64,000 bases of DNA, taken from assembly GCF_055900595.2 (NCBI RefSeq), contig NZ_CM148325.1. One strand, written 5' to 3'. Position numbers and translations under genes: made by a program. Shown here in pieces: positions 10,023 to 29,806 of the stretch (the stretch's first letter is position 1; every line of letters starts with the position of its first letter). The notes beneath the pieces are model-generated. The model was not told the origin of the DNA and did no database searches. It saw only the letters and a program-made list of their open reading frames with translations.

Positions 10023-11264
<1,242 letters not shown>

Positions 11265-11291
11265 TTACACGTTAATTAGTTTCGAATTAAA

Positions 11292-11316
11292 AAGGGCGCT
11301 TCGGCGCCCTTTTTGC
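11292..11316 (+). terminator. Rho-independent terminator after tufA
   Basis: Hairpin gggcgc-ttcg-gcgccc followed by T run. Confidence 0.75.
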
Positions 11317-11391
11317 TGCCCGTAATTTGAGCTCGAAATATTTAGTCGTAATTTCACTCGCTGAACTATGGCGCAAATTAAACTGTGCTAT

Positions 11392-11413
11392 TGTAATCAT
11401 AACCATTCTCATT
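11392..11413 (+). promoter_or_regulatory. Candidate Fur box upstream of bfd
   Basis: AT-rich element gtaatcataaccattctcatt resembling the Fur consensus GATAATGATAATCATTATC, about 35 bp upstream of bfd. Confidence 0.4.
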
Positions 11414-11446
11414 TACACTTTGCGCAGAATTTGAACGGGAGCAATC

Positions 11447-11641
11447 ATGTACGTTTGTTTGTGTAATGGTGTAAGTGACAAAAAAATTCGCCAGGCAGTC
11501 CGTCAGTTTCATCCGCAATCTTTCCAACAATTGCGTAAGTTTATTCCTGTGGGAAATCAATGCGGTAAGTGCATTCGCGCCGCGCGCGAAGTGATGCAGG
11601 ACGAGTTGATGCAGATGCCAGAATTTAAAGAGATTGCCTGA
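11447..11641 (+). CDS. bfd: Bacterioferritin-associated ferredoxin Bfd (64 aa)
   Basis: MYVCLCNGVSDKKIRQAV...GNQCGKCIRAAREV; [2Fe-2S] cysteine pattern. Confidence 0.95.
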   Translation: MYVCLCNGVSDKKIRQAVRQFHPQSFQQLRKFIPVGNQCGKCIRAAREVMQDELMQMPEFKEIA

Positions 11642-11713
11642 AGCCCACGCTTATTTTTTGACATCCCGCTAGCCCCATCTACGCTCTAATAGTGGAAGCG
11701 GAGGGACTATAAA

Positions 11714-12190
11714 ATGAAAGGTGATGTTAAAATCATAAATTATCTCAATAAACTATTGGGAAATGAGCTTGTCGCAATCAATCAGTATTTTCTCCATGCC
11801 CGGATGTTTAAAAACTGGGGCCTGATGCGTCTCAATGACGTCGAATACCATGAATCTATTGATGAGATGAAACACGCTGATAAATATATCGAGCGTATTT
11901 TGTTTTTAGAAGGAATCCCTAACTTACAGGATTTAGGCAAACTGGGGATTGGTGAAGATGTCGAGGAGATGCTGCAATCCGACCTGCGATTAGAACTGGA
12001 AGGCGCGAAGGATCTCCGTGAGGCTATCGCGTATGCCGACAGCGTTCATGACTATGTTAGCCGTGATATGATGATCGAGATCCTTGCCGATGAAGAAGGT
12101 CATATTGACTGGCTCGAAACTGAGCTGGATCTCATCGGTAAAATCGGTTTACAAAATTACCTGCAATCACAAATAAAAGTTAAAGATTAA
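11714..12190 (+). CDS. bfr: Bacterioferritin (158 aa)
   Basis: [37 protein letters not shown]...; ferritin-like di-iron ligands. Confidence 0.97.
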
Positions 12191-12654
12191 CGGCCTGCCA
12201 GCAAACTATCCCAGCCTACAACGAAACCCGCAGCCGCCAGAAATGGCCCAAACGGCAGCGGGTTTTTTAATGACTCTTTTCCTCTCATGAGCAGACCAAT
12301 AACTACGGCTCCGCAAGCGAATGAGGCAGCAAGGAAAACCAGTCGTGGCAAGAAGGTCCATGTATGCCAGGCACCAAGGGCGGCGAGAAACTTCACATCA
12401 CCATAGCCTAATCCTTCTTTATGACGCAGTATGCGATACCCCCAGTAAATGACAGCGAATGTGCCGTAACCAATAATCGCCCCCCATAACGCATCGGCTA
12501 AACCGTCAGGATTACAAACCTGATAGAACAAAAGACCTGACCAGAGTAACGGGCACGTAAATCTGTCAGGTAACAAGCCATGCTTTGCATCCCAGAAAAA
12601 AAGTAGGGCTGATAAACAAGCGTACAAAATCAGAAAGGGAAGGGTAGCGTCCAT
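12187..12654 (-). CDS. Short (155 aa) prepilin peptidase-family (A24) membrane protein; GspO/HopD-like peptidase domain without the N-terminal cytoplasmic domain
   Basis: Contains [14 protein letters not shown] and [11 protein letters not shown] motifs typical of PilD/GspO peptidases; convergent with bfr, stop codons overlapping. Confidence 0.7.
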
Positions 12655-28408: not shown

Positions 28409-29785
28409 TTACAAAAAGAAAGGACTTGGCTGGAAGAGTCTTTCGACGTCGGTAATAAACTTTTTATCTGTGAGGAACATAATTACATGATCGCCTTGCT
28501 CAATACGCAGATTGTCATTGGCAATCATCACATCATTGCCGCGTACTACAGCACCAATAATCGTTCCTGGCGGTAGCTTGATTTCGTCAATGACTCTGCC
28601 GACAACGCGTGAGGTGCTTTCATCACCGTGAGCAACGGCTTCAATAGCTTCTGCTACGCCGCGGCGCAATGAGGAAACACCAACAATATCTGCTTTTCGC
28701 ACATGGCTAAGCAACGCAGAGATGGTCGCTTGTTGCGGTGAAATTGCAATATCGATCACGCTCCCCTGAACCAGATCCACATAAGCGCGACGCTGGATCA
28801 ATACCATCACCTTTTTCGCGCCCATACGTTTGGCGAGCATGGCGGACATAATATTGGCCTCGTCATCGTTGGTGACGGCAATAAACAGATCAACTTGATC
28901 GATGTGCTCTTCAGCCAGCAGTTCCTGATCCGATGCATCACCAAAAAAGACGATCGTATTCTGCAGCTTTTCCGCCAGCTCGGCAGCGCGCTGTTGATTA
29001 CGCTCGATGAGTTTGACGCTGTAATCTTTTTCCAGACGACGCGCCAGCCCTGCACCGATATTACCGCCGCCAACCAGCATGATCCGCTTATACGGTTTTT
29101 CCAGACGTTGCAATTCACTCATCACCGCGCGGATGTGTTGCGAAGCGGCAATAAAGAACACTTCATCACCAGCTTCAACAATGGTCGAACCTTGCGGACG
29201 AATAGGGCGATCGTGGCGGAAAATGGCTGCCACACGAGTATCGATATGCGGCATATGTTCGCGCATGGTCGAAAGTGCATTACCAATCAGTGGGCCGCCA
29301 TAATAGGCTTTAACCACAGCCAGGCTGACTTTACCCTCAGCGAAGTTCACTACCTGCAGCGCGCCGGGATACTCAATCAGTCGGTAAATATTATCGATAA
29401 CCAGCTGCTCTGGTGCGATCAGATGATCAATCGGTACAGCATCTGAATGAAATAGCTTATCGGCATCGCGCACGTAGTCTGGTGAGCGGATACGAGCGAT
29501 GCGATTAGGGGTGTTGAAAAGTGAGTAGGCTACCTGGCAGGCAACCATATTGGTTTCATCTGAACTGGTTACAGCAACCAGCATATCGGCGTCGTCGGCA
29601 CCTGCCTCCCGCAATACGCGTGGATGAGAGCCATGCCCCTGCACGACTCGCAGGTCAAATTTATCCTGCAAGGTCCGCAGACGCTCACCGTTGGTATCGA
29701 CAACAGTAATATCGTTGTTCTCGCCAACCAGGTTTTCCGCCAGTGTGCCGCCAACCTGGCCGGCACCCAGAATGATAATTTTCAT
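28409..29785 (-). CDS. trkA: Trk potassium uptake system NAD-binding protein TrkA (458 aa)
   Basis: [48 protein letters not shown]...; two tandem Rossmann/KTN domains. Confidence 0.97.
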
Positions 29786-29806
29786 CAGTCGCGACCCGTT
29801 ATCTCA

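What the first reader, a model, noticed from the sequence alone, without database searches (positions are those of the whole stretch)
11378..11446. Candidate Fur box upstream of bfd
The bfd upstream region contains gtaatcataaccattctcatt (11392..11413), resembling the Fur consensus and overlapping the likely promoter. This is consistent with known iron-dependent derepression of bfd; in this compact arrangement without chiA it sits only about 80 bp from the tufA terminator.
Basis: partly seen in the sequence, partly recalled or inferred. Interest (0 to 1): 0.15.

Follow-up and report, generated by a model that had tools for sequence, protein, structure and literature searches.

The report
Known Fur operator on bfd promoter
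The flagged sequence is a genuine, very strong binding site for the iron-sensing repressor Fur. It sits on the promoter of the bfd gene and has already been shown by published experiments on E. coli and Salmonella strains carrying the identical sequence, so it is real but ordinary.

Summary

- **Locus.** The window is E. coli with the compact order tufA-bfd-bfr. This is also the order in Salmonella and Citrobacter, and it occurs in about 2255 of 5426 complete E. coli genomes.
- **Motif score.** I derived a Fur weight matrix de novo from 15 K-12 Fur-regulated promoters, leaving bfd out. It scores 11395-11413 (AATCATAACCATTCTCATT) at 19.9 bits. That is the best site in the 64 kb window (next best 12.9 bits), with about 0.004 expected by chance. 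Weaker sites lie 6 bp to either side.
- **Promoter overlap.** The operator fills the space between a conserved -35 (TTGTAA, 11391-96) and -10 (TACACT, 11414-19).
- **Conservation.** A Fur box at about -50 from the bfd start codon is kept in 65 of 76 Enterobacterales species. The flanking DNA is not conserved.
- **Published experiments.** E. coli W has the identical sequence. A published Fur ChIP-exo peak there, seen only under iron-replete conditions, maps to window 11392-11404, and bfd rises about 12-fold in a fur deletion. Salmonella has the identical operator and shows about 95-fold derepression.
- **Verdict.** Already known; low interest.
- **Open side-issue.** The same operator may also control a divergent small RNA resembling Salmonella STnc4000. 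K-12 lacks the DNA interval where it would lie.

The parts
11288..11315 (+). Intrinsic terminator of tufA. The GC stem is gggcgc/gcgccc with loop ttcg. An A-run lies 5' and a T-run 3', so the hairpin could work in both directions.
   Evidence: Sequence. Fold gives -19 kcal/mol, z = -3.7. The hairpin is invariant in E. coli, Salmonella and Citrobacter. The simple scan missed it.
11395..11413 (.). Core Fur box AATCATAACCATTCTCATT, a palindromic 19-mer matching 16 of 19 positions of AATGATAATCATTATCATT.
   Evidence: 19.94 bits with the de novo matrix; top of the window; about 0.004 expected per 64 kb. It overlaps the position equivalent to the E. coli W ChIP-exo peak, window 11392-11404.
11389..11419 (.). 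Extended Fur operator: three overlapping sites in 6-bp register at 11389 (10.0 bits), 11395 (19.9 bits) and 11401 (4.9 bits). It spans the -35 to the -10.
   Evidence: Clusters with 6-bp phasing are typical of Fur sites (PMC2189734).
11391..11396 (+). Inferred bfd -35 hexamer TTGTAA.
   Evidence: Column conservation in 64 species: T64, T64, G61, variable, A64, A60. A 17-nt spacer separates it from the -10. The transcription start has not been mapped.
11414..11419 (+). Inferred bfd -10 hexamer TACACT.
   Evidence: The pattern TAnnnT is kept in 62-63 of 64 species while the three middle positions vary. The start site is inferred to lie near 11426.
11437..11441 (+). Shine-Dalgarno sequence GGGAG of bfd.
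   Evidence: Sequence. It is conserved in alignments.
11447..11641 (+). bfd, the bacterioferritin-associated [2Fe-2S] ferredoxin (64 aa). This is the gene the operator regulates.
   Evidence: ORF. RefSeq annotation of identical E. coli loci. Pfam Fer2_BFD on the Salmonella orthologue.
11714..12190 (+). bfr, bacterioferritin (158 aa). It lies downstream and is partly co-transcribed with bfd.
   Evidence: ORF and annotation. bfr rises only modestly in fur-deletion strains.
11286..11384 (-). Hypothetical divergent transcript, the positional counterpart of Salmonella STnc4000. It would start from a minus-strand promoter (-10 TACAAT at 11395->11390, -35 GTGTAA at 11418->11413) that shares the Fur operator, and end at the tufA hairpin.
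   Evidence: This is inference only. The promoter block is 39 of 39 identical to Salmonella, where a Fur-repressed sRNA divergent from bfd is reported (PMC5001712). The body is poorly conserved and has no conserved structure beyond the terminator.

Best explanation
The segment 11389-11419 is the Fe2+-Fur operator of the bfd promoter.

**Repressed state.** When iron is sufficient, Fur dimers occupy the core 19-mer (11395-11413) and its phased flanking half-strength sites. This DNA is exactly the spacer and the inner edges of the -35 (TTGTAA) and -10 (TACACT) elements. Bound Fur therefore excludes RNA polymerase and bfd is silent.

**Derepressed state.** When iron falls, Fur loses its metal and leaves the DNA. 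bfd is then transcribed from about 11426, with some read-through into bfr. Bfd can then help release iron stored in bacterioferritin.

**What is shown.** The strength of the motif, its conservation, Fur occupancy in vivo on the identical sequence, and Fur-dependent expression.

**What is inferred.** The exact -35, -10 and start-site assignments, and the occlusion mechanism.
For: **Motif.**
- The site scores 19.94 bits with a matrix learned without bfd. It is the best of 64 kb and exceeds every one of 200 simulated windows.
- The three sites are in 6-bp phase, as in footprinted Fur clusters.

**Conservation.**
- In 76 Enterobacterales species the best Fur site within 150 bp upstream of bfd has a median of 17.2 bits. 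It reaches at least 12 bits in 65 of 76.
- Most of these sites lie 49-58 bp before the ATG, although the sequence upstream of the box is unalignable.
- Several lineages keep the motif with a different sequence, for example ATTGAGAACAATAATCATT and AATGGTAATCATTATTATT.
- The only variant seen within E. coli is C to T at the degenerate central position, in O157:H7.
- 1696 of 2254 genomes are identical across 11378-11446, but only 367 of 2255 are identical (at least 99%) across 11316-11446.

**Promoter.** The hexamers flanking the box show the conservation signature of -35 and -10 elements.

**Published experiments.**
- E. coli W, with the identical sequence: ChIP-exo peak 3667868-3667880, binding condition 'R' (iron-replete only), equivalent to window 11392-11404. 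bfd is up by log2 3.58 in a fur deletion, and by 3.08 in the W derivative KO11FL (PMC10164565).
- O157:H7 Sakai: up by log2 2.27. The one O157:H7 genome I checked, strain F8798, has the compact allele.
- Salmonella, with the identical operator: bfd goes from 12.9 to 1229 TPM in a fur deletion.
- K-12 and CFT073 homologous site (15.8 bits): ChIP summit at -49, 29.9-fold derepression, and a lacZ fusion repressed by Fur.
Against: - No in vitro footprint or gel shift on this exact fragment was found in the literature I could reach.
- The transcription start site was not mapped here. The generic promoter scan did not call the promoter, which matches 8 of 12 positions against a threshold of 9.
- The MG1655 ChIP-exo sheet lists no bfd peak, although W3110 ChIP-exo and MG1655 ChIP-seq do.
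- Part of the block's conservation could come from promoter function, or from a divergent promoter, rather than from Fur.
Confidence: 0.93

Rival explanations
1. The operator is shared by two back-to-back promoters. Besides bfd, it represses a minus-strand promoter (-10 TACAAT at 11395->11390) that produces a short RNA of roughly 95-100 nt. This RNA would run towards tufA and stop at the bidirectional tufA hairpin, making it the E. coli counterpart of Salmonella STnc4000. This adds to the main explanation rather than excluding it.
For: - Colgan et al. describe STnc4000 as intergenic, divergent from bfd, and carrying a Fur box over its -10. It is 12.6-fold up in a fur deletion (PMC5001712).
- The 39-bp block TGTGCTATTGTAATCATAACCATTCTCATTTACACTTTG is identical in the window and in Salmonella, and the intergenic lengths are 182 and 184 bp.
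- The minus-strand -10, TACAAT, matches the consensus at 5 of 6 positions.
- On the minus strand the hairpin is followed by UUUUUAA.
Against: - There are no E. coli transcript data for this strand.
- The minus-strand -35 is weak (GTGTAA, 3 of 6).
- The RNA body is poorly conserved between genera, and only the terminator hairpin is a conserved structure, with no covariation.
- The spacer between terminator and box shrinks to about 15-30 nt in some relatives, such as Escherichia sp. ESNIH1, Hafnia and Ewingella.
- There is no Rfam family for it. The weak STnc130 hit (22.6 bits against a threshold of 55) comes mainly from the terminator hairpin at its 3' end.
Confidence: 0.45
2. The conserved AT-rich block is simply the sigma-70 promoter of bfd, and its resemblance to a Fur box is incidental.
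For: The box coincides with the -35, spacer and -10. Promoters are AT-rich and conserved.
Against: - Promoter spacers are not normally conserved to the base, nor do they score 19.9 bits on a Fur matrix (P about 6e-8 per position).
- Lineages that changed the spacer sequence kept a Fur-matrix match.
- Fur ChIP-exo and ChIP-seq signal lies on the site, and bfd is derepressed in fur deletions of strains with the identical sequence.
Confidence: 0.03
3. The site is bound by another protein, such as H-NS, Fis, IHF or a Fur paralogue like Zur, rather than by Fur.
For: The sequence is AT-rich. The neighbouring chiA-gsp region in K-12 is known to be H-NS-silenced (from my own knowledge, not tested here).
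Against: - The matrix was learned only from Fur-regulated promoters and matches at 16 of 19 positions.
- The ChIP experiments were Fur-specific, and the binding depended on iron ('R' only).
- Expression changes in fur-deletion strains.
Confidence: 0.02

Closest known systems
Fur site at the bfd promoter of E. coli W and KO11FL (Gao et al. 2023, NAR, PMC10164565)
   Same: The DNA is identical from the box to the ATG. The same compact tuf-bfd-bfr locus encodes the same Bfd and Bfr proteins. The ChIP-exo peak falls on window-equivalent 11392-11404, and bfd is derepressed in a fur deletion.
   Different: Nothing relevant. The window has 3 SNPs further upstream and 2 next to the terminator.
Fur-repressed bfd promoter of E. 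coli K-12 and CFT073 (Beauchene 2015, PMC4676285; Banerjee 2020, PMC7157518)
   Same: The site is homologous and colinear: TTGAAATAAGAACTATTTTCATTTATTTT in K-12 against TTGTAATCATAACCATTCTCATTTACACT in the window. Fur ChIP signal, a repressed lacZ fusion and derepression in a fur deletion are all reported.
   Different: This is a deeply diverged allele. The box scores 15.8 against 19.9 bits; bfd is 76.9% and bfr 80.1% identical at the nucleotide level; and chiA rather than the tufA terminator lies upstream.
Salmonella Typhimurium bfd / STnc4000 divergent Fur-regulated promoter (Colgan 2016, PMC5001712; Troxell 2011, PMC3212961)
   Same: The 39-bp promoter and operator block is identical, and so is the gene order fusA-tufA-bfd-bfr-peptidase A24-rpsJ. 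bfd is strongly Fur-repressed.
   Different: The 70 nt between terminator and operator are only loosely similar. The minus-strand U-tract is better in E. coli. The sRNA has not been shown in E. coli.
Classical Fur operators overlapping promoters (ryhB, fepA-fes, fepB-entC, cirA, sufA)
   Same: Same 19-bp palindromic motif, similar scores (14-22 bits), clustering in 6-bp register, and a position over the -35 and -10.
   Different: The regulated gene mobilises stored iron rather than taking up iron.

Membership tests
Fe2+-Fur operator (Fur box) of a Fur-repressed promoter | Sequence match to the Fur-box motif (19-bp palindrome, 7-1-7, or hexamer array) | tested here: met
   14 of 19 to GATAATGATAATCATTATC. 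16 of 19 and 19.94 bits with the de novo matrix. 11 of 14 to the 7-1-7 core. Rank 1 in 64 kb; 0 of 200 simulations reach it.
Fe2+-Fur operator (Fur box) of a Fur-repressed promoter | Overlapping sites phased by 6 bp (multi-dimer operator) | tested here: met
   Sites at 11389, 11395 and 11401 score 10.0, 19.9 and 4.9 bits. This is the pattern described in PMC2189734.
Fe2+-Fur operator (Fur box) of a Fur-repressed promoter | Overlap with the -35 and -10 of the regulated promoter | tested here: inconclusive
   The -35 TTGTAA and -10 TACACT are inferred from spacing and from conservation across 64 species. The generic scan did not call them, and no start-site data were available.
Fe2+-Fur operator (Fur box) of a Fur-repressed promoter | Conservation of the site upstream of orthologous genes | tested here: met
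   65 of 76 Enterobacterales species have a site of at least 12 bits, mostly 49-58 bp before the ATG. The flanks are not conserved.
Fe2+-Fur operator (Fur box) of a Fur-repressed promoter | Iron-dependent Fur occupancy in vivo | not testable with these tools
   Taken from the literature. An E. coli W ChIP-exo peak, iron-replete only, lies on the identical sequence and maps to window 11392-11404. The CFT073 ChIP-seq summit lies at -49.
Fe2+-Fur operator (Fur box) of a Fur-repressed promoter | Derepression of the downstream gene in a fur mutant or under low iron | not testable with these tools
   Taken from the literature. log2 fold change: 3.58 (W), 3.08 (KO11FL), 2.27 (Sakai), 7.30 (W3110), 5.23 (CFT073). 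Salmonella about 95-fold. K-12 bfd-lacZ is repressed by Fur.
Fe2+-Fur operator (Fur box) of a Fur-repressed promoter | Direct binding in vitro (footprint or gel shift) to this fragment | not tested
   None was found in the papers I could reach. Troxell 2011 lists bfd as having no direct binding evidence.
STnc4000-type divergent Fur-repressed sRNA | Minus-strand promoter under the Fur box, a transcript, and a terminator | tested here: inconclusive
   The promoter block is identical to Salmonella, and the -10 TACAAT and the reverse-direction terminator are present. There are no transcript data, and the body shows no conservation or structure.

The most novel reading that the evidence does not exclude
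About 40% of E. coli genomes carry the ancestral compact tufA-bfd interval. In these strains the Fur operator may be bidirectional and also switch on, under iron limitation, a small RNA of roughly 95-100 nt. This would be the orthologue of Salmonella STnc4000. It would be transcribed away from bfd and end at the tufA hairpin. K-12 and CFT073 have replaced this interval with chiA and would lack the RNA, which would explain why it has never been catalogued in E. coli.
Probability: 0.4. Interest if true: 0.3.

Novelty: already known. Interest (0 to 1): 0.1.

Why it matters
**Biological role.** Fur control of bfd is part of the textbook iron-homeostasis circuit. Under low iron, Bfd is made and helps release iron stored in bacterioferritin.

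**What this analysis adds.** Confirming the site here adds no new biology. It does show that a sequence-only reader identified a real operator that has been validated experimentally. It also refines the register of the box and its place in the promoter.

**Possible new threads.** Two are modest.
- E. coli carries two deeply diverged regulatory alleles of bfd, scoring 19.9 and 15.8 bits.
- The compact allele may encode an iron-regulated divergent small RNA that is absent from K-12.

Tried and rejected
- **Consensus search.** The search allowing up to 3 mismatches found nothing. The site has 5 mismatches to the classical consensus in that register, so I used my own scans instead.
- **Generic promoter and terminator scan.** It found neither the bfd promoter (8 of 12 matches, just under the threshold) nor the obvious tufA terminator, where pairing of the A-run with the T-run absorbs the T tract. 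I replaced it with folding and comparative analysis.
- **Literature that could not be reached.** Panina 2001 and Seo 2014 are not held. The supplements of Beauchene 2015 and Chen 2007 are not held.
- **Rfam.** No family reaches its threshold in 11230-11730. The weak hits (STnc130, Atu_C8, STnc40 and others) all overlap the terminator hairpin region, so I rejected them.
- **Second-best matrix hit.** The hit at 29771-29789 lies on the trkA start codon, which encodes MKIIIL. I judged it a coding coincidence.
- **Structure in the putative divergent RNA.** I looked for a conserved structure and found only the terminator hairpin, with no covariation.
- **fecI promoter region.** The fetch (L095) missed the intergenic region, so it was left out of matrix training.

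Full report
**Locus.** The window around the finding reads fusA, tufA (stop codon at 11262-11264), bfd (11447-11641), bfr (11714-12190), a 155-aa prepilin-peptidase gene on the minus strand, and then rpsJ. It is E. coli. The 521 bp spanning the end of tufA to the start of bfr is 100% identical to many complete E. coli chromosomes, and 2255 of 5426 genomes carry this compact arrangement. K-12 and CFT073 instead have chiA, and further on the gsp cluster, between tufA and bfd.

**Checking the observation.**
- Against the classical 19-mer GATAATGATAATCATTATC, the best register (11392-11410) matches 14 of 19. This ties for the best in 64 kb, and an overlapping 13 of 19 match lies 6 bp away.
- To avoid relying on a remembered consensus, I fetched 15 intergenic regions of K-12 operons that have Fur ChIP-exo peaks: fhuA, fepA-fes, fepD-entS, fepB-entC, fiu, fhuE, yncE, cirA, nrdH, exbB, feoA, ryhB, fhuF-yjjZ, sufA and mntH. 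bfd was not included.
- EM motif discovery on these regions converged on the palindrome AATGATAATCATTATCATT, carrying 15.1 bits.
- With this matrix the window's best site is 11395-11413, AATCATAACCATTCTCATT. It matches 16 of 19 positions and scores 19.94 bits.
- The next best site in the window scores 12.87 bits. Only ryhB (21.9) and sufA (20.8) among the training sites score higher.
- None of 200 Markov-simulated windows reaches this score. The analytic expectation is about 0.004 per 64 kb and about 0.05-0.3 per 5 Mb.
- Weaker sites sit exactly 6 bp to either side, at 11389 (10.0 bits) and 11401 (4.9 bits). This is the phasing described for footprinted Fur clusters (PMC2189734).
- The tufA terminator hairpin (11288-11315, -19 kcal/mol) ends 80 nt before the core box.

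**Anatomy.** The operator lies between TTGTAA (11391-11396) and TACACT (11414-11419), which are separated by 17 nt. GGGAG (11437-11441) follows, and then the ATG at 11447.

**Comparative evidence.**
- A scan of one genome per species with Bfr returned 80 Enterobacterales loci.
- In 76 usable bfd upstream regions, the best Fur-matrix site within 150 bp has a median of 17.2 bits and reaches at least 12 bits in 65 cases.
- In most of these lineages the site lies 49-58 bp before the ATG. In Xenorhabdus it lies about 100-138 bp upstream.
- DNA upstream of the block is not alignable between genera.
- Several lineages keep a high-scoring box with a different sequence.
- The hexamer 4 nt upstream of the box shows T64, T64, G61, variable, A64, A60. 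The hexamer immediately after the box is T63, A62, n, n, n, T63. These are the signatures of -35 and -10 elements.
- The transcription start (about 11426) is inferred, not measured.

**Variation within E. coli.**
- 1696 of 2254 genomes are identical across 11378-11446.
- Only 367 of 2255 are at least 99% identical across 11316-11446. Polymorphism therefore avoids the operator, promoter and leader.
- The one box variant I found, in O157:H7, is C to T at the degenerate central position.

**Published experiments on the identical sequence.**
- E. coli W has the same compact locus, the same Bfd and Bfr protein accessions, and identical DNA from the box to the ATG.
- Dataset 2 of Gao et al. 2023 (PMC10164565) lists Fur ChIP-exo peak P126 for bfd in strain W at 3667868-3667880, with binding condition 'R' (iron-replete only). 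With the bfd ATG at 3667825, this corresponds to window 11392-11404, on the predicted box.
- Dataset 4 of the same paper gives bfd log2 fold change (fur deletion over wild type) of 3.58 in W, 3.08 in KO11FL, 2.27 in O157:H7 Sakai, 7.30 in W3110 and 5.23 in CFT073. The one O157:H7 genome I checked, strain F8798, has the compact allele.
- A Salmonella locus has the same gene order and a 39 of 39 identical block, TGTGCTATTGTAATCATAACCATTCTCATTTACACTTTG.
- In S. Typhimurium, bfd rises from 12.9 to 1229 TPM in a fur deletion (PMC5001712) and 5.9-fold when grown anaerobically (PMC3212961).

**Published experiments on the diverged K-12 and CFT073 allele.**
- The homologous box is AATAAGAACTATTTTCATT, scoring 15.8 bits at -49.
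- The CFT073 ChIP-seq summit lies 49 bp upstream of the ATG, and bfd is 29.9-fold derepressed.
- Beauchene et al. report Fur binding and a bfd-lacZ fusion repressed by Fur in K-12.
- Huja et al. predicted a Fur box for bfd in an ExPEC strain.

**Mechanism.** Fe2+-Fur dimers occupy 11389-11419 and block RNA polymerase from the bfd promoter. Loss of iron releases Fur and bfd is transcribed, with modest read-through into bfr (bfr log2 fold change 1.1 in W). Binding and regulation are shown by the literature. Promoter occlusion is inferred from the geometry. I put confidence at about 0.93.

**Rival explanations.**
- The idea that the block is only a promoter is contradicted by the ChIP and fur-deletion data and by the matrix statistics.
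- The same evidence contradicts binding by some other protein that prefers AT-rich DNA.
- The one alternative worth keeping adds to the main explanation. Colgan et al. describe a Fur-repressed sRNA, STnc4000, divergent from bfd, with the Fur box over its -10. It is 12.6-fold up in a fur deletion.
- In the window the minus strand carries TACAAT (11395->11390) and GTGTAA (11418->11413). Each promoter's -35 therefore overlaps the other's -10, and the palindromic operator lies between them.
- A transcript from about 11383 would reach the tufA hairpin, which on this strand is followed by UUUUUAA.
- The body is poorly conserved, and only the terminator is a conserved structure. Nothing in Rfam matches. 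No E. coli transcript data were available.
- I rate the existence of this RNA at about 0.4-0.45.

**Comparison with what is known, and verdict.** This is the known Fur operator of bfd, in the allele shared by E. coli W, O157:H7 and Salmonella. All sequence-level defining features of a Fur box were tested and met. In vivo occupancy and Fur-dependent expression are documented in the literature for the identical sequence. Only an in vitro footprint and a mapped start site are missing. Novelty: already known. Interest: low, about 0.1.

Noticed in passing
window 11265-12654 versus L002 (K-12) and L083 (CFT073): E. coli has two deeply diverged haplotypes between tufA and rpsJ. The window type is compact and syntenic with Salmonella and Citrobacter; it occurs in about 2255 of 5426 complete genomes. 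The K-12 type carries chiA and gsp. bfd is only 76.9% and bfr only 80.1% identical at the nucleotide level between the two types, although the adjacent tufA is 99.8% identical. This suggests an old replacement by horizontal transfer.
   Followed up: partly
window 11286-11418, minus strand: A possible divergent promoter (-10 TACAAT at 11395->11390, -35 GTGTAA at 11418->11413) shares the Fur operator. It could give an RNA of roughly 95-100 nt ending at the bidirectional tufA hairpin. This would be the positional counterpart of the Salmonella Fur-repressed sRNA STnc4000. The promoter block is identical to Salmonella, but the body is not conserved.
   Followed up: partly
window 11541-11553 (inside the bfd coding sequence): A second E. 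coli W Fur ChIP-exo peak (P125, assigned to bfr and labelled intergenic) in fact maps inside the bfd coding sequence. No Fur-matrix match is there; the best nearby score is 2.5 bits. This is unexplained.
   Followed up: partly
window 29771-29789: The second-best Fur-matrix hit in the window (12.9 bits, AATGATAATTTTCATCAGT) lies on the start codon of trkA on the minus strand (ATGAAAATTATCATTCTG, encoding MKIIIL). It is probably a coding coincidence.
   Followed up: yes
window 11658-11685: The bfd-bfr spacer holds a perfect -35 (TTGACA, 11658-11663), then 16 nt, then TACGCT. This is a candidate separate promoter for bfr, consistent with bfr responding much less than bfd to fur deletion.
   Followed up: no
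L104 (E. coli HS-01), equivalent to window ~11370-11390: This natural variant has a deletion and rearrangement whose right end stops exactly at the TTGTAA -35. The Fur box and the bfd promoter are kept, but the minus-strand -10 is destroyed (TACAAT becomes TACAAC). The bfr gene of this strain is annotated as frameshifted.
   Followed up: no
window 12187-12654, minus strand: A 155-aa prepilin peptidase (peptidase A24) gene overlaps the bfr stop codon by 4 nt. It is shorter than K-12 GspO (225 aa) and only about 61% identical to it over a 208-nt local nucleotide alignment. A gene of the same size is present at this position in Salmonella.
   Followed up: no
window 11288-11315: The simple terminator scan missed the textbook tufA terminator. 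The flanking A-run pairs with the T-run, which extends the stem and consumes the T tract that the scan requires.
   Followed up: yes
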